In this document: positions 3,819 to 35,288 of the stretch, one piece after another
Numbering within the stretch: the first letter of the stretch is position 1
How the letters are laid out: each line of letters begins with the position of its first letter
Origin: a virus
Virus genome (UHGV): UHGV-0091736
Reading direction: 5' to 3' (one strand)
DNA: 64,000 nt
The notes under the pieces: model-generated
Seen by the model: only the letters and a program-made list of their open reading frames with translations
Database searches by the model: none
What the model was told of the DNA's origin: nothing
Translations under genes and position numbers: made by a program

Positions 3819-3978
3819 CTAAGTTTTAAAAACCATCAAATTCGTCATACATCCCAATTTTCCTCGGCTGCTAAGTAAGACTCTTCTCTGGCTTTTATTT
3901 CTTCAATAATCTCTGTAAGGTGATTTGCCATTTTAAGCAATTCATCTAGAATATCTTGACTATAGATCATATTTCCTC

Positions 3979-4206
3979 CTAGATCAAATCATAATATTGA
4001 ATAATGTCTGAGAGCTTGAACTCTCGAATCTCATCTTTCTCTACATCAATCGCTGTCATAATCCAACAAGGTTTGCCACTGTTATGAAAACGGGAGCTAG
4101 CAACGGAGGTTCGGAGTGGAATAACGGACCGGTCAGCAACCTCGCCTCTCCAATTACGATAGCGAAAGCGAAGCACTTGTTGCGTAGATTTTTGATCATC
4201 ACTCAT
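3979..4206 (-). CDS. Hypothetical protein (about 75 aa)
   Basis: ATG overlaps the stop of the upstream HNH gene (ATGAGTGA), suggesting translational coupling; the longer track ORF 3979..4347 overlaps that gene. Confidence 0.35.
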   Translation of the reverse strand: MSDDQKSTQQVLRFRYRNWRGEVADRSVIPLRTSVASSRFHNSGKPCWIMTAIDVEKDEIREFKLSDIIQYYDLI

Positions 4207-4600
4207 TTCCTTTTTTGAATTGTTTTCTTGCATCATTCTCTTCTCTTGTTTTAATCTTATGACAAGGATCTTTACACAGAACCTGAAAACCTTCTTTCTC
4301 ACACAGGGCACGAGAGATGATTTCATCCCAAGTCGCTTCATGATCAAGAGGAACGATAGGATTTATATGATCTATAGCCATATCCTTTACAGGGTGGTCA
4401 GAACCACACATGGCACACTTAAAGTGCATTGCCAGTCTACCTGTCTTTGGATTAATCTTCTGCTCTGTCTTGGCGTCTGCTAGTGCATCGAACATGGGCT
4501 TCCACTTTCTAGTCAGAGAACGAATCCCTGACTTGATGAAAGAATTATAACGAGCTTCAGTCCACGTTCCACTACAGCGTGTCTTCTCAGACTTCGCCAT
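4199..4600 (-). CDS. HNH endonuclease
   Basis: CAMCG ... AIDHINP ... CHKIKT spacing typical of HNH zinc-finger nucleases. Confidence 0.6.
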   Translation of the reverse strand: MAKSEKTRCSGTWTEARYNSFIKSGIRSLTRKWKPMFDALADAKTEQKINPKTGRLAMHFKCAMCGSDHPVKDMAIDHINPIVPLDHEATWDEIISRALCEKEGFQVLCKDPCHKIKTREENDARKQFKKGNE

Positions 4601-7144: not shown

Positions 7145-8630
<1,486 letters not shown>

Positions 8631-8631
<1 letters not shown>

Positions 8632-8891
8632 TATTCTATTCCACGCTCTTTCAGAGCTTCTAACAATCCATTGTGATTAGCAGCACATTCTGTGTACTGG
8701 TCCTGATACCACTCCAACGTAGTGGCTAGTGCTTTTCCTTGAGCACTTTCTAAAAGAGGTAGGTCAACCCTACATTCAGCTTTTAGGTTTGTTGGTAAGG
8801 GCATTGATTGCCTGCTGTTGTCGCTCGTTGAACAAGCTGACATACTCATCACTAGCGCAGACATTATAAAAAACTGGTTTAGTTTTCTCAT
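8631..8891 (-). CDS. Small lipoprotein, o-spanin-like (overlapped with the next gene in another frame)
   Basis: Signal peptide ending in a lipobox-like MSAC when started at MRKLNQ; overlaps the 3-prime part of the TM/coiled-coil gene. Confidence 0.3.
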
Positions 8892-9126
8892 AATGCATCT
8901 CTTTATAAACGGTTTCCGTGTTCTTCTTCCAGTTAGATAAACCGGTAAGAACCCTCTGAGCAACTTCATCAGCTGCTCTATTTCTTTCAATCTCTAACTC
9001 TTGTTGATGTTTCTCTTTGTCCAGATTACTGCTGTCTGTTTGATATTCGTTAAACTTCATACCACCAAAGAATACAAGAGCTGAGAAAACGATAAACCCT
9101 AAGTTATCACTTAATGTGTTTTGCAT
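8776..9126 (-). CDS. N-terminal TM plus coiled-coil protein, i-spanin-like
   Basis: Hydrophobic helix LGFIVFSALVFFGG then helical periplasmic region; GGAG 7 nt upstream of ATG at 9126. Confidence 0.35.
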   Translation of the reverse strand: MQNTLSDNLGFIVFSALVFFGGMKFNEYQTDSSNLDKEKHQQELEIERNRAADEVAQRVLTGLSNWKKNTETVYKEMHYEKTKPVFYNVCASDEYVSLFNERQQQAINALTNKPKS

Positions 9127-9135
9127 GTTGTCTCC

Positions 9136-9165
9136 AACGAAAAAAGCCACCCGGAGGTGGCTAAG
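9136..9165 (-). terminator. Rho-independent terminator downstream of the SSB-like gene
   Basis: Hairpin AGCCACC-CGGAG-GTGGCT flanked by A-run/T-run. Confidence 0.5.
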
Positions 9166-9183: not shown

Positions 9184-9930
9184 TTAGAATGGGCTATCGT
9201 TGTCGTCTTCGTAAGTAGAAGCAGGCTCTTTATCAATCGTAGGGATTGAAGGAGTAGCTTCTTTCTGCTCTGTTTCAGAAGCACGAGTAATTTCACGACC
9301 AGCCAGAGGCATGTTCTTAGCGTCATTAGCTTGAGTAAGCAGGTTGCGCTGGAACGGGAACATCAGTTGATAGGATGCTACGTTCTCATCGGTTTCAGCA
9401 TACGGTTCGAAGAATACCAGAGGACTACGAGCTTCACCAACTGCTGCACGATATTTGGTTGGGATTGGAGAAATGGTCTTGATGGAGTTTTTAACTTCAC
9501 CAGCTTTGTTAGTATAAGAGTTAACCAGAATGTTAACAGGCTGACCTAACAGAACATCCTTGAACCAAGACAGATCACCTTTCAGTGCTTGAATACTTGG
9601 GTCAATCATCTTGCAAAGATCAAGAATACCAGAGTTCTTAGCTCGTGGGTTTACATCATAGCTCTTGAACTGGCAAGCCGGACGCGGTTCTAATGCCTTA
9701 CCATCGGAATCTTTACCAGTAGCATCAACGCCAATCAGCTCGAAAGCTAAATCCATACGGAAAGCCGGATTCTTAGGAGTTACTGCTTTGGTCTTCGGGT
9801 CAATCCAAGGGTCACGATTGTGAACACCTAAACCTACTACACGAACGATACGTGCTTCGTATTCGCCATCAGGGATTACATCGTAGTTGGATTTACGGGA
9901 AGAGGTTGCGATAGTTGGAATCATGCTCAT
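9184..9930 (-). CDS. Single-stranded DNA-binding protein (T7 gp2.5-like)
   Basis: Acidic C-terminal tail ending in Phe (YEDDNDSPF); flanked by a long promoter-like region and a terminator. Confidence 0.5.
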   Translation of the reverse strand: MSMIPTIATSSRKSNYDVIPDGEYEARIVRVVGLGVHNRDPWIDPKTKAVTPKNPAFRMDLAFELIGVDATGKDSDGKALEPRPACQFKSYDVNPRAKNSGILDLCKMIDPSIQALKGDLSWFKDVLLGQPVNILVNSYTNKAGEVKNSIKTISPIPTKYRAAVGEARSPLVFFEPYAETDENVASYQLMFPFQRNLLTQANDAKNMPLAGREITRASETEQKEATPSIPTIDKEPASTYEDDNDSPF

Positions 9931-9988
9931 TATTAATTTCCTTATTTAATTTGAAAGATTGTTGCTCTCTTTGAGCGGTTATGTATAA

Positions 9989-9997
9989 TATACATTA
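9989..9997 (-). promoter_or_regulatory. TAATGTATA promoter-like element upstream of the SSB-like gene
   Basis: Exact 9-mer on the minus strand about 60 nt upstream of the start at 9930. Confidence 0.4.
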
Positions 9998-10524
9998 CAT
10001 ATATAGTGTAGGAACTACCGGAAGGTAGTAGGTTTTGTCCAAACAAAAGTCTCTTTAGAGTTATTTATTGGGGATTGCCTCTTATAAACCCGAGACTGTC
10101 TAGCAGTTACATAAGCCCTAGCTCTCTGTAGCTGCATACTTATGATTAAATTTCATGGTAGTATATCTCTAAGTGCTATAATGTATATAAGTTATAGCTG
10201 ATAAAGTTATTGCACGGGACTGACGACGATAAGGCGCAGACGACAATCTCTCATAAGTTTGTAAGAAATTGAGAGGCTACCGGAAGGGCAGGAGCCACCT
10301 GCGAGATAAAAATAGAGAATTAAGGAATCCTTGATTTAGGTTGTAGGGACTCCTAGGGACTTTGATTCTCTATTTAAAAGAATAAATAATTATTATATCT
10401 AACACTAAACAAATTGATACAAAAACAAGAAACTTCTTGTAAATACTCATTAATTATTACCTAAATAGTTAACTAGTTTACTTAATATTAATCTCTGATA
10501 GAATCTTTAGATACTACAGGTTCT

Positions 10525-19915: not shown

Positions 19916-20095
19916 TTATGCAGTCAGGAGGTGAAGCAGGAACGGGATAACAACAGCTACGATAACCATGATAGTTGATGCTGTTTGAATCTCACCTTTC
20001 TTATCAGGAGTTTCTTCAATAAGCTTACCAGAAGCCCAATAAATACCACCACCAATAAAGATAGCCCAAATACCCCATACGATTGCTGATAACAT
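19916..20095 (-). CDS. Small two-TM membrane protein (59 aa), holin-like; not in the ORF track
   Basis: Two hydrophobic helices separated by a charged loop (EETPDKKGE). Confidence 0.35.
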   Translation of the reverse strand: MLSAIVWGIWAIFIGGGIYWASGKLIEETPDKKGEIQTASTIMVIVAVVIPFLLHLLTA

Positions 20096-33517: not shown

Positions 33518-34324
33518 TTATGCTACCTGAAGGAGTTTGATCTGCTGGTCCGCTTCTTTAACGTTGTTGCCGTTAATGATTTCATGAAGCTTCTCAATCG
33601 GAAGGCGAGAGTGCAATGCCATCAGAGTGGACATATCACACTGCTGAACAACCTTGTCAACCTGATCGTAAACAAACTTACGGTTTTCACGATCGCTAAT
33701 CCAGAAGTTAGACAGCGAACGATATTCGATACCATAGTCTTTATAACGGATTGCAGATGCTTTACCGTAGAGTTCTTTACGGCGAGTATCTTTGTCCATA
33801 ATTACTGCTGGGAGTGATAGGAAGTAGTCACACAGCACACCAAGCATCATCTGAGTTTGCAGAGTGATATCCAAAGCCCCAACGACACCAAGATGTACGT
33901 GACCACCGGCAGTACGAAGTCCCTTATTCTGAGAAGTTGGGGATGGGTTTTTCTGACCAGTGAAAGCGTTGAAGTCAGGAGTGCATCCAAAGATGAACGC
34001 TGATTCATTAAAGGTCTTCATCTCTTCTTCGGTGAAGATGTGAGAGCTGACACCCGGAGCTGTTTCCATATCCAGTTTGTTCAGGACTTTATTGGTGAGA
34101 TCAATACCACGTTGCATGTTATCATTAAACGCTTCAAAACCGCTCTGTGGGTCAATATCAAACTCAGCCAATACGTTGTCCTCTTGAAGACGAACATCCT
34201 TAGCCAGAGCGATCTTATCGTCCTTAGAGCAGCCTAGAAGACCGGCTACAGAGGTGATGATGCCGTTGCTAGTACGAACGAAGAGCTCAGGGTCGCTGCC
34301 TATTAAGAATTTGCGCTTAGTCAT
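33518..34324 (-). CDS. Second amidoligase-like protein (tentative)
   Basis: GSDPELF and GGHVHLG motifs. Confidence 0.35.
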   Translation of the reverse strand: MTKRKFLIGSDPELFVRTSNGIITSVAGLLGCSKDDKIALAKDVRLQEDNVLAEFDIDPQSGFEAFNDNMQRGIDLTNKVLNKLDMETAPGVSSHIFTEEEMKTFNESAFIFGCTPDFNAFTGQKNPSPTSQNKGLRTAGGHVHLGVVGALDITLQTQMMLGVLCDYFLSLPAVIMDKDTRRKELYGKASAIRYKDYGIEYRSLSNFWISDRENRKFVYDQVDKVVQQCDMSTLMALHSRLPIEKLHEIINGNNVKEADQQIKLLQVA

Positions 34325-35288
34325 TGTAATACTCCACTAGTTCAGAAAAGAGAGATGAGATTGTGTTACCAACTTCTTCAAGTGTAAGTCCAGAGCTTGG
34401 ACCAGTACGTTGAATCAGTCGGGCTGTAAAGTTTTGTACTGTAATGTTTTCCAACTTATTGTCTATTGTTTCACGTTTGTGACCATGACAGTTGGACCAG
34501 AGTTTTAACCACCCTGACATTGTTTCATACTCGTCTGGGTCTTGATCTTTATCAAGAGCAAACCCTCGTAAGGCCTCTGGGTTATGGTTACGAACATAAC
34601 CATTCTCATTGTAACCAACACCGAAGGGGTTTTGAACCCATACTTGCTTCGTGTACTCATCAGAGTCTACAACCAAAGGAAGGAATGCTGCTGCTGACAT
34701 ACCATTGTTGATAAGAATGGCTGTGTTCTCTCCACTCCCATTGGGGATTCCTCGTTGAGACCATCCACCGAAGAAGTCACGACCTAACCCAGCTAACACT
34801 AGAGCGATGCCTATGCGTTTACGCTTCAGCCACTCTTCCCTGTCTTCAATTCCTTCTGCTAGGAAATCCATTCCACGATACTGCCCTTCCAGAATACTAC
34901 GAAAGAGCATAAGTCCTGTGAAGATCTGATCTGCTGGATGCTCACGAAGGTTGACAGCAACACTGTTCGCTGAAGTGATAGTAAATACATCACGATAGCA
35001 AGACATGGAGTTCATAATGTCTGCTGTTTCAACCAAGATCTTTTCAATCTCAGATGCAGGGTGATTGTGAAAAGAGTGAGTCCAGTAATTCAACATCTCC
35101 AGTTGCAAGTTGATACCACGGTTGAAGCGTTTATGACGCCCATCTTCCATGATATATTCGCCATTAATGTCAATTAAGAGGTGGCTTTGCATGTAGTTGT
35201 GGACACCGAAGCACCCACAACCTAAGAACTTCTGTTCCCCTAAACCCTGTTGAAGATTTAGAGGCACGATCGTTGTAGAGATTGCCAT
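34317..35288 (-). CDS. Hypothetical protein in enzyme module
   Basis: ORF only. Confidence 0.35.
   Translation of the reverse strand: MAISTTIVPLNLQQGLGEQKFLGCGCFGVHNYMQSHLLIDINGEYIMEDGRHKRFNRGINLQLEMLNYWTHSFHNHPASEIEKILVETADIMNSMSCYRDVFTITSANSVAVNLREHPADQIFTGLMLFRSILEGQYRGMDFLAEGIEDREEWLKRKRIGIALVLAGLGRDFFGGWSQRGIPNGSGENTAILINNGMSAAAFLPLVVDSDEYTKQVWVQNPFGVGYNENGYVRNHNPEALRGFALDKDQDPDEYETMSGWLKLWSNCHGHKRETIDNKLENITVQNFTARLIQRTGPSSGLTLEEVGNTISSLFSELVEYYND

What the first reader, a model, noticed from the sequence alone, without database searches (positions are those of the whole stretch)
8631..9126. Overlapped spanin-like gene pair in the early region, with other lysis-type genes scattered
A TM-plus-coiled-coil ORF overlaps, in another frame, a small lipoprotein ORF that extends beyond its end. 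This resembles overlapped i-spanin/o-spanin pairs. It is not next to the SleB-like hydrolase (43508-43897) or the small two-TM protein (19916-20095), and a second TM/coiled-coil protein lies at 43011-43307, so lysis functions may be dispersed or these may be exclusion proteins.
Basis: inference. Interest (0 to 1): 0.4.

Follow-up and report, generated by a model that had tools for sequence, protein, structure and literature searches.

The report
Known overlapped spanin pair of a kuravirus

Summary
The window is a Kuravirus (phiEco32/SU10-like) E. coli podophage. On the minus strand, a 116-aa ORF (9126..8776) with an N-terminal membrane helix overlaps a +1-frame 86-aa lipoprotein ORF (8891..8631) by 116 nt. 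The lipoprotein ORF runs 145 nt past the first ORF's stop.

- **Identity:** the first protein matches PHROG "Rz-like spanin" at E 1.8e-37. Its sequence is identical to phiEco32 gp39.
- **Partner:** the second protein is 100% identical to the annotated o-spanin of phage Paul.
- **Prior record:** Kongari et al. 2018 list this pair for phiEco32, NJ01, KBNP1711 and ECBP2. They give the same 116-nt overlap and a 19-residue signal peptide.
- **Relatives:** distant homologues sit directly after holin and endolysin genes in 9NA-like and P2-like phages.
- **Coding evidence:** codon-position variability switches frame at the i-spanin stop, so both frames are coding.

The pair is unlinked from the kuravirus holin–lysozyme pair. 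That pair lies in the late structural module, in the ~14 kb of genome missing from this window.

The pair lies in a middle-class unit, not an early one. Upstream is a gp36-type promoter element, then gene 40, then a conserved terminator-like hairpin. Downstream are a macro-domain gene and the phage sigma factor gene.

The exclusion-protein alternative is not supported. Verdict: already known, low interest.

The parts
8776..9126 (-). i-spanin gene (116 aa; homologue of phiEco32 phi32_39): N-terminal membrane helix followed by a ~92-residue helical periplasmic domain with one Cys (C90)
   Evidence: ORF and sequence. PHROG 1152 'Rz-like spanin', E 1.8e-37. Translation identical to phiEco32, MN03 and SU10. 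Annotated 'Rz-like spanin' or 'i-spanin' in relatives.
8631..8891 (-). o-spanin gene (86 aa precursor, 67 aa mature lipoprotein; phiEco32 phi32_38 extended upstream to its true start), in the +1 frame relative to the i-spanin
   Evidence: ORF. 100% identical to phage Paul CPT_Paul_035 'o-spanin', whose record notes a LipoP SpII site between residues 19 and 20. PHROG 2425 at E 3.5e-27 and a weak PHROG 456 spanin match. Listed by Kongari et al. 2018.
8776..8891 (-). 116-nt dual-coding overlap: the i-spanin C-terminal 38 codons, and the o-spanin signal peptide plus the first mature residues
   Evidence: Variability is lowest here (20 of 116 sites) and mostly at the i-frame third position. Same 116-nt overlap is tabulated for phiEco32 and KBNP1711.
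9058..9102 (-). Codons for i-spanin residues 9-23 (LGFIVFSALVFFGGM), the predicted transmembrane helix
   Evidence: Hydropathy scan. TMpred note 'TMD 8-23' in the Paul record, whose i-spanin is 99% identical.
8832..8891 (-). Codons for the o-spanin signal peptide (residues 1-19) and lipobox Cys20 (TGT 8834-8832)
   Evidence: Cys20 is invariant in distant homologues.
9132..9135 (-). GGAG ribosome-binding site of the i-spanin
   Evidence: Sequence. Same element is marked by Kongari et al. and in the Paul record.
8899..8904 (-). AAAGAG Shine-Dalgarno-like element 7 nt upstream of the o-spanin ATG, inside the i-spanin coding sequence
   Evidence: Sequence. Conserved in 8 phages. Marked 'GAG' or 'AGAG' by Kongari et al..
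9139..9162 (-). Terminator-like hairpin (7-bp stem, 5 G-C pairs, then a T6 run) between gene 40 and the i-spanin start
   Evidence: MFE -17.3 kcal/mol, z -2.4. Conserved with the SD and ATG in three genera. Annotated as a terminator in phage Paul.
9989..9997 (-). Exact TAATGTATA, the phiEco32 gp36-holoenzyme promoter element, upstream of the gene 40 homologue (9930..9184). Probable middle-class promoter of the unit 40-39-38-37-36.
   Evidence: Conserved at the same place in relatives. phiEco32 has an experimentally located gp36-dependent promoter in front of gene 40 (PMC8948821). Gene numbering.
8629..8633 (-). TAATG junction: the o-spanin stop codon shares one base with the ATG of the downstream macro-domain gene (8631..8191)
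   Evidence: Macro domain: Pfam E 2.8e-9.

Best explanation
The two ORFs are the two-component spanin of a phiEco32-like (Kuravirus) phage.

**Expression.** They are probably transcribed as middle genes. The likely promoter is the gp36-type element in front of gene 40, with read-through from upstream, passing a conserved terminator-like hairpin. The same unit continues into the macro-domain gene and the phage sigma factor gene.

**Translation.** Two proteins are made from overlapping frames. The 116-aa i-spanin anchors in the inner membrane by its N-terminal helix and projects a mainly helical domain into the periplasm. The 86-aa o-spanin precursor is exported and lipidated on Cys20. Signal peptidase II then cleaves it. 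With Ser at +2, the Lol pathway sends it to the inner leaflet of the outer membrane.

**Complex.** The conserved C-terminal segments are proposed to bind each other: EKTKPVFYNVCASDEYVSLFNE in the i-spanin and the LEWYQDQYTECAANHNGL helix in the o-spanin. Homotypic disulfides through the conserved cysteines would stabilise the bridge across the periplasm.

**Action.** The complex accumulates harmlessly, caged by the peptidoglycan. The late-expressed holin and lysozyme-type endolysin are encoded about 20 kb away in the structural module. Once they destroy the wall, the spanins fuse inner and outer membranes and complete lysis.

**Shown here:** gene structure, dual-frame constraint, targeting signals, homology, and the genomic context of relatives.

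**Inferred from the lambda Rz/Rz1 paradigm:** complex formation, disulfides, membrane fusion. Timing is inferred from phiEco32 promoter data.
For: Identity of the genome:
- The window is 95-96% identical to Kuravirus genomes.

The i-spanin:
- PHROG 1152 'Rz-like spanin', E 1.8e-37, matched over the full length.
- Sequence identical to phiEco32 gp39.
- 413 phage records hold homologues, many annotated as i-spanin.

The o-spanin:
- 100% identical to the curated o-spanin of phage Paul, with a LipoP SpII site at 19/20.
- 254 phage records hold homologues, many annotated as o-spanin next to an i-spanin.

Published record:
- Kongari et al. 2018 place the phiEco32, NJ01, KBNP1711 and ECBP2 i-spanins in the JH2/FelixO1 family and their o-spanins in a family of four.
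- Architecture is 'ovl' with a 116-nt overlap, proteins of 116 and 86 aa, and a 19-aa signal peptide.

Context and conservation:
- Homologues at 28-42% identity sit in canonical cassettes. Salmonella phage Solent has holin-endolysin-holin-i-spanin-o-spanin. Yersinia phage 324 has holin-peptidase-I-spanin-O-spanin.
- Invariant across these homologues: o-spanin Cys20 and Cys69, and i-spanin Cys90.
- Codon-position variability follows the i frame up to the i-spanin stop and the o frame after it.
- In Bas86 an HNH insertion destroys the old o-spanin start, and a new signal peptide with lipobox LMAC precedes the same Cys. This argues that the lipoprotein signal is required.
Against: - I found no experiment on this sequence family in the papers I could read. 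The spanin census is bioinformatic.
- There is no Pfam match to the lambda Rz or Rz1 families, or to any Pfam family above its cut-off.
- There is no solved relative in the PDB.
- The i-spanin N-terminus (MQNTLSDN) has no positive charge, so the positive-inside rule does not itself predict N-in topology. Kongari et al. flagged the same point for NJ01. Distant homologues do carry K or R there.
- The mature o-spanin has only 3 prolines and no proline-rich stretch like Rz1.
- Coiled-coil prediction is marginal.
- The single-sequence AlphaFold models are of low confidence, with pLDDT 58 and 59.
- The pair is not adjacent to the holin and endolysin genes.
Confidence: 0.92

Rival explanations
1. The pair is a superinfection-exclusion or receptor-masking system. 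It would consist of an outer-membrane lipoprotein (in the manner of T5 Llp or the Cor proteins) and an inner-membrane partner, made before late genes to protect the infected cell. It would not be a lysis device.
For: The pair lies in the leftward early/middle cluster, next to the sigma factor gene, and far from the holin and lysin genes. Phage lipoproteins are few and some are exclusion factors (general knowledge). There is no experimental proof of spanin activity for this family.
Against: Homologues of both proteins occupy the spanin slot directly after holin and endolysin genes in unrelated phage types. The two genes are always paired in the spanin-typical +1 overlap. The periplasmic cysteines and C-terminal segments co-conserved in both partners fit a spanning complex. 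Unlinked spanins have a precedent in T4 pseT.3/pseT.2 (PMC6139136).
Confidence: 0.03
2. Only the membrane/helical protein is real. The overlapping N-terminal extension is a chance open frame, and the true downstream gene is the 57-aa product starting at the internal Met30, as annotated in RefSeq for phiEco32, SU10 and MN03.
For: RefSeq and many GenBank records annotate a 174-nt CDS that starts after the lipobox. The codon-position signal in the non-overlapping part would equally fit the short form. The Shine-Dalgarno element before the long form is weak.
Against: The ATG, a basic n-region, the hydrophobic core and Cys20 are kept in homologues at 28-42% identity whose i-spanin sequence differs. 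Residues 20-29 of the long form are conserved within kuraviruses. Bas86 rebuilt a different signal peptide and lipobox in front of the same Cys after an insertion. Curators at the Center for Phage Technology and Kongari et al. explicitly moved the start upstream.
Confidence: 0.03
3. The protein at 43011-43307 (TM plus coiled coil) is a second, alternative i-spanin. Together with the SleB-like hydrolase it would form a second dispersed lysis set.
For: It has an N-terminal hydrophobic segment and a charged helical tail. The SleB-like hydrolase lies about 200 nt upstream on the same strand and passes the Pfam Hydrolase_2 cut-off.
Against: There is no lipoprotein ORF overlapping or adjacent to it. 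Its only family match is PHROG 12154, labelled 'DNA helicase', with no spanin family. There is no homology to the 8776-9126 protein.
Confidence: 0.02

Closest known systems
phiEco32 gp39/gp38 and phage Paul CPT_Paul_036/035 (Kuravirus two-component spanin; Kongari et al. 2018, i-spanin family 'JH2', o-spanin family 'NJ01')
   Same: Identical i-spanin to phiEco32. The o-spanin is 100% identical to Paul and differs from phiEco32 by 1 aa. Same 116-nt +1 overlap, same upstream hairpin and SD, and same neighbours: gene 40, macro-domain gene, sigma factor gene.
   Different: Nothing of substance. The window is simply another isolate.
FelixO1-type, 9NA-type (Solent), P2-like Yersinia phage 324 and Proteus phage RS10pmA spanin pairs
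   Same: Homologous in both subunits at 28-42% identity, with an overlapped architecture. The lipobox Cys, a second o-spanin Cys and the i-spanin Cys are conserved.
   Different: In Solent and Yersinia phage 324 the pair is the last element of a holin-endolysin cassette. Here, as in FelixO1, it is unlinked from the holin and endolysin.
Lambda Rz/Rz1
   Same: Same logic: a type II inner-membrane protein with a helical periplasmic domain, plus a small outer-membrane lipoprotein encoded in the +1 frame of the same DNA, with periplasmic cysteines.
   Different: No detectable sequence homology; there is no Pfam hit. The architecture is overlapped rather than fully embedded. The o-spanin has a C-terminal helix and only 3 prolines instead of a penta-proline stretch. 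The i-spanin is shorter, 116 aa. That lambda Rz is 153 aa is my own knowledge.
T4 PseT.3/PseT.2
   Same: The spanin genes are located away from the holin (t) and endolysin (e) genes, in a non-late region (PMC6139136). The sizes are similar, at 117 and 83 aa.
   Different: The T4 genes are 'separated' rather than overlapped, and belong to a different sequence family.
P2 LysB/LysC
   Same: Overlapped architecture in which the o-spanin gene starts inside the i-spanin gene and extends beyond it (PMC6139136).
   Different: A different sequence family in the census. The P2 pair is part of the lysis cassette.

Membership tests
Two-component spanin (functional class, criteria of Kongari et al. 2018) | i-spanin: a small protein with a single N-terminal transmembrane domain | tested here: met
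   The only strongly hydrophobic segment is residues ~9-23. TMpred gives 8-23 for the 99%-identical Paul protein.
Two-component spanin (functional class, criteria of Kongari et al. 2018) | i-spanin topology N-in/C-out (type II) | tested here: inconclusive
   The N-terminal segment MQNTLSDN has no positive charge. [quoted passage not shown] Distant homologues do have K or R before the TMD.
Two-component spanin (functional class, criteria of Kongari et al. 2018) | Periplasmic domain of the i-spanin largely alpha-helical or coiled-coil | tested here: inconclusive
   The AlphaFold single-sequence model has helices at 36-76, 79-91 and 93-111, but pLDDT is only 58. The census gives 54 of 88 residues as helical, with 0 coiled-coil segments for phiEco32 and 1 for NJ01.
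Two-component spanin (functional class, criteria of Kongari et al. 2018) | o-spanin: signal peptidase II signal with a lipobox Cys, and no Asp at +2 (outer-membrane sorting) | tested here: met
   MRKLNQFFIMSALVMSMSA|CST: lipobox MSAC, with Ser at +2. The record of the identical Paul protein notes a LipoP SpII score of 18.0. Actual lipidation was not tested.
Two-component spanin (functional class, criteria of Kongari et al. 2018) | o-spanin gene embedded in, overlapping or adjacent to the i-spanin gene | tested here: met
   +1 frame, 116-nt overlap, and the o-spanin extends 145 nt beyond, which is the 'overlapped' class.
Two-component spanin (functional class, criteria of Kongari et al. 2018) | At least one periplasmic Cys available for intermolecular disulfides | tested here: met
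   i-spanin C90; mature o-spanin C40 and C69. C90 and C69 are invariant in distant homologues.
Two-component spanin (functional class, criteria of Kongari et al. 2018) | Outer-membrane disruption at lysis (complements lambda Rz/Rz1 defect) | not testable with these tools
   Needs an experiment. I found no such test for this sequence family in the papers read.
JH2/FelixO1/phiEco32 i-spanin family and NJ01/phiEco32 o-spanin family (sequence families) | Significant sequence similarity to the listed members | tested here: met
   i-spanin identical to phiEco32. The o-spanin differs by 1 aa from phiEco32 and 2 aa from the NJ01 sequence printed in the census. PHROG 1152, E 1.8e-37.
Lambda Rz / Rz1 sequence families (Pfam) | A match to the Pfam models at the gathering threshold | tested here: not met
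   Neither protein has any Pfam family above its cut-off, even at max E = 1. The pair works like Rz/Rz1 but is not a member of those sequence families.

The most novel reading that the evidence does not exclude
The pair is wired into a middle-class unit: a gp36-type promoter element, gene 40, a conserved terminator-like hairpin, the spanins, a macro-domain gene and the sigma factor gene. The holin and endolysin are late genes on the other strand. The spanin complex could therefore have a second, pre-lysis role in the envelope. Examples would be exclusion of superinfecting phage, or a required pre-loading that sets lysis kinetics. The hairpin could act as an attenuator that sets spanin and sigma factor dosage.
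Probability: 0.05. Interest if true: 0.4.

Novelty: already known. Interest (0 to 1): 0.08.

Why it matters
It matters little for discovery, because the pair is in the published spanin census and in curated records.

The practical value is for annotation. Most kuravirus records, including RefSeq phiEco32, SU10 and MN03, still carry the o-spanin as a 57-aa 'hypothetical protein' that starts after its lipobox. Automated pipelines will therefore keep missing it.

It is also a clean example of a phage whose spanins are unlinked from the holin and endolysin and are under a different temporal class, as in T4.

Tried and rejected
- **Pfam:** the scan of both proteins gave nothing above cut-off.
- **PDB:** the sequence search gave no relatives.
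- **AlphaFold:** single-sequence models of both proteins had low confidence (pLDDT 58-59). I used them only for secondary structure and ran no fold search. Alignments built from fetched loci cannot be submitted to the structure tool. I judged a 13-CPU-hour homologue search unnecessary for a settled case.
- **Lipoprotein-signal scan:** a window-wide six-frame scan gave 3 hits against 1.3 expected, so the pattern alone is not significant.
- **Holin and lysin:** I looked for the kuravirus holin and lysin in the window by tblastn. They are absent. The window lacks the stretch equivalent to EK5 22.5-36.6 kb.
- **Primary phiEco32 papers:** Savalia 2008 (PMC2587145) and Pavlova 2012 (PMC3275717) are not held. 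The temporal class therefore rests on secondary descriptions and on the promoter element.
- **Bas86 intron reading:** no group I intron was found by Rfam.
- **SleB-like protein:** its PDB sequence search gave no SleB/CwlJ structure hit.

Full report
**What the window is.** A 4-kb stretch around the finding is 95-96% identical to about 100 Escherichia and Shigella podophages of the genus Kuravirus and its sister genera: phiEco32, SU10, MN03, EK5, Paul and others. Alignment with phage EK5 shows what the window covers. It holds the whole leftward early/middle gene cluster and both ends of the rightward late cluster. It lacks about 14 kb, equivalent to EK5 22.5-36.6 kb.

**The observation.** Two ORFs lie on the minus strand.
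- The first runs from ATG 9126 to the stop at 8778-8776 and encodes 116 aa. It has a GGAG at 9135-9132.
- The second runs from ATG 8891 to the stop at 8633-8631 and encodes 86 aa. It has AAAGAG at 8904-8899.

The second ORF starts 235 nt into the first, which is the +1 frame. It overlaps the first by 116 nt and extends 145 nt beyond it.

The first protein has one strongly hydrophobic segment, at residues ~9-23. The rest of it is 30% charged residues. The second begins MRKLNQFFIMSALVMSMSA|CSTSDN. That is a basic n-region, a hydrophobic core, the lipobox MSAC, Cys20, and Ser rather than Asp at +2.

**Is it more than chance?** A permissive lipoprotein-signal pattern alone is not significant. It gave 3 hits in six frames against 1.3 in shuffles, and the other two hits are poor. 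Conservation settles the question.

I aligned the pair from eight phages of three genera. Variable sites were counted by codon position:

| Region | Frame | Positions 1 / 2 / 3 | Variable sites |
|---|---|---|---|
| i-only (235 nt) | i frame | 19 / 11 / 43 | 73 of 235 |
| Overlap (116 nt) | i frame | 3 / 5 / 12 | 20 of 116 |
| o-only (145 nt) | o frame | 18 / 4 / 37 | 59 of 145 |

The third-position excess follows the i frame up to the i-spanin stop and the o frame after it. The overlap is the least variable part. Both frames are therefore under protein-level selection.

The o-spanin start codon, its SD-like element and the signal peptide are kept in all eight phages.

**What it is.** The 116-aa protein matches PHROG 1152 'Rz-like spanin' over its full length at E 1.8e-37. 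The 86-aa protein matches PHROG 2425 (function unknown) and, weakly, a spanin PHROG. Several lines of annotation and literature agree.
- RefSeq calls the first gene 'Rz-like spanin' in phiEco32 (phi32_39), SU10 and MN03.
- The curated record of phage Paul annotates both genes. Its i-spanin carries a TMpred TMD at 8-23. Its o-spanin carries a LipoP SpII site between residues 19 and 20, with score 18.0.
- The window's o-spanin is 100% identical to Paul's.
- The spanin census of Kongari et al. 2018 (PMC6139136) lists phiEco32, NJ01, KBNP1711 and ECBP2.
- The census puts their i-spanins in the JH2/FelixO1 family and their o-spanins in a family of four.
- Its supplementary tables give architecture 'ovl', a 116-nt overlap, proteins of 116 and 86 aa, and a 19-aa signal. 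They add the remark that the deposited o-spanin start was wrong and had to be moved upstream.

**Evidence from distant relatives.** tblastn finds the o-spanin in 254 phage records and the i-spanin in 413. Hosts include Escherichia, Salmonella, Erwinia, Shigella, Klebsiella, Citrobacter, Proteus, Pectobacterium and Yersinia. Many hits are annotated 'o-spanin | i-spanin'.

At 28-42% identity the pair sits in textbook lysis cassettes.
- Salmonella phage Solent has holin, endolysin, holin, i-spanin, o-spanin.
- Yersinia phage 324 has holin, peptidase, I-spanin, O-spanin.
- In FelixO1 the pair is unlinked from the lysis genes, near rIIB.

Alignments show the lipobox Cys20 and Cys69 invariant in the o-spanin, and Cys90 invariant in the i-spanin. 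The best-conserved blocks are the i-spanin C-terminal segment (EKTKPVF.NVC..DEYV.LFNE) and the o-spanin C-terminal helix.

Single-sequence AlphaFold models have low confidence. They give an o-spanin with a disordered linker and a helix at 44-82, and an i-spanin that is helical throughout. This agrees with the census secondary-structure tables.

**Where the rest of the lysis system is.** In EK5 a holin (72 aa) and a lysozyme-type lysin (163 aa) lie together between tail genes in the late cluster. That is about 20 kb from the spanins, on the other strand. Published descriptions say the same for kuraviruses in general (PMC7881722; PMC4281155). tblastn finds neither gene in the window.

- The 129-aa SleB-like protein (43897..43508) passes the Pfam Hydrolase_2 cut-off, at 32.2 bits against 27. 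Its distant homologues in GAP52-, 7-11- and Privateer-type prolate podophages are annotated as the endolysin. Those phages lack the kuravirus holin-lysozyme pair. It is a plausible second muralytic enzyme.
- The 59-aa two-TM protein (20095..19916) has no lysis-related match.
- The 98-aa TM/coiled-coil protein (43307..43011) has no lysis-related match either, and no lipoprotein partner.

**Regulation.** The pair is not in the promoter-proximal early part of the leftward cluster. An exact copy of TAATGTATA lies at 9997-9989 on the minus strand, in front of the gene 40 homologue. This is the single-element promoter recognised by the phiEco32 gp36 holoenzyme. phiEco32 has an experimentally located gp36-dependent promoter in front of gene 40, and gene 36 is described as a middle gene (PMC8948821). 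Gene numbering was checked.

Between gene 40 and the i-spanin start lies a terminator-like hairpin at 9162-9139. Its MFE is -17.3 kcal/mol. The promoter element is conserved in all relatives whose fetched locus reaches that far. The hairpin, SD and ATG are conserved in Kuravirus, Nieuwekanaalvirus and Suseptimavirus. The hairpin is annotated as a terminator in Paul.

The o-spanin stop overlaps the ATG of a macro-domain gene in a TAATG junction. The sigma factor gene follows. The most likely temporal class is therefore middle. This is inferred, not measured here.

**Mechanism.** By analogy with lambda Rz/Rz1 (established knowledge, summarised in PMC6139136), the steps would be as follows.
1. 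The i-spanin is anchored in the inner membrane.
2. The lipidated o-spanin is anchored in the outer membrane.
3. The two bind through their C-terminal regions and form disulfide-linked complexes spanning the periplasm.
4. After holin triggering and murein degradation, the complexes fuse the two membranes.

Only the targeting signals, the gene architecture, the conservation and the homology are shown here.

There are caveats. I found no experiment for this sequence family. There is no Pfam Rz or Rz1 membership. The i-spanin has an uncharged or negative N-terminus. The o-spanin has few prolines. Coiled-coil prediction is marginal.

**Rivals.**
- An exclusion function is contradicted by the position of homologues in lysis cassettes and by the obligate pairing.
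- A spurious N-terminal extension, with the 57-aa RefSeq form as the real gene, is contradicted by conservation of the signal and Cys20 in distant homologues. It is also contradicted by phage Bas86. There an HNH insertion destroyed the old start, and a new signal peptide with lipobox LMAC was recruited in front of the same Cys.

**Verdict.** The secondary details, 'early region' and the identity of the other lysis genes, need correction. The feature is already known, so interest is low.

Noticed in passing
window 8631-8804 (-); L001 3420-3593, L002 3420-3593, L008 2274-2447: RefSeq and GenBank records of phiEco32, SU10, MN03, EK5 and many others annotate the o-spanin as a 174-nt (57-aa) CDS. 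It is usually called 'hypothetical protein' and starts at internal Met30, after the lipobox. KBNP1711 and EP335 carry an even shorter 126-nt version. Only a few records, such as Paul, have the 86-aa form.
   Followed up: yes
L012 (Bas86, PQ850622) 421-1458; L014 (EK010, NC_070981) 1292-2329: In two relatives an HNH endonuclease gene lies between the i-spanin and the o-spanin. In Bas86 the stretch encoding GLFNERQQQAA is duplicated on both sides. The upstream copy keeps the i-spanin frame, and there the old o-spanin start is cut by a stop. The downstream copy keeps the o-spanin, which now starts inside the 3' end of the HNH gene with a new signal peptide, MLTKKKQKSCLVILLASSLMAC. The Bas86 record annotates a two-piece (intron-like) i-spanin, but Rfam finds no group I intron. 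This looks like an overlapped-to-separated conversion by mobile-element insertion.
   Followed up: partly
L002 (SU10) 3974-4387: SU10 carries another HNH endonuclease gene between the gene 40 homologue and the i-spanin. This small region therefore seems to be a repeated landing site for homing endonucleases.
   Followed up: no
window 43508-43897 (-): This 129-aa SleB/CwlJ-type cell-wall hydrolase (Pfam Hydrolase_2, 32.2 bits against a cut-off of 27) lies in the early cluster and has no signal peptide. It is labelled 'cell wall hydrolase' in phage Paul. Its distant homologues are the annotated endolysins of GAP52-, 7-11- and Privateer-type phages. Kuraviruses therefore carry two candidate muralytic enzymes, and the role of this one is unknown.
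   Followed up: partly
window 1-64000 vs EK5 (L003): The kuravirus holin (72 aa) and lysozyme-type lysin (163 aa) sit between tail genes in EK5 (33642-34381). They are absent from the window, which lacks about 14 kb of the late module.
   Followed up: yes
window 9931-10250, with 9989-9997 (-) and 10179-10187 (+): There is a roughly 300-nt stretch without convincing ORFs upstream of gene 40. It holds two exact copies of the gp36 promoter element TAATGTATA on opposite strands. The plus-strand copy points away from any obvious gene.
   Followed up: no
window 43011-43307 (-): This 98-aa protein has an N-terminal membrane segment and a coiled-coil-like tail. It belongs to PHROG 12154, which is labelled 'DNA helicase'. 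That label looks implausible for a protein of this size and composition.
   Followed up: no
window 9103-9126 (-): The kuravirus i-spanin N-terminus (MQNTLSDN) carries no basic residue ahead of the TMD, unlike its homologues in Solent, Yersinia phage 324 and Proteus phage RS10pmA. Kongari et al. also remarked on the net negative charge.
   Followed up: partly
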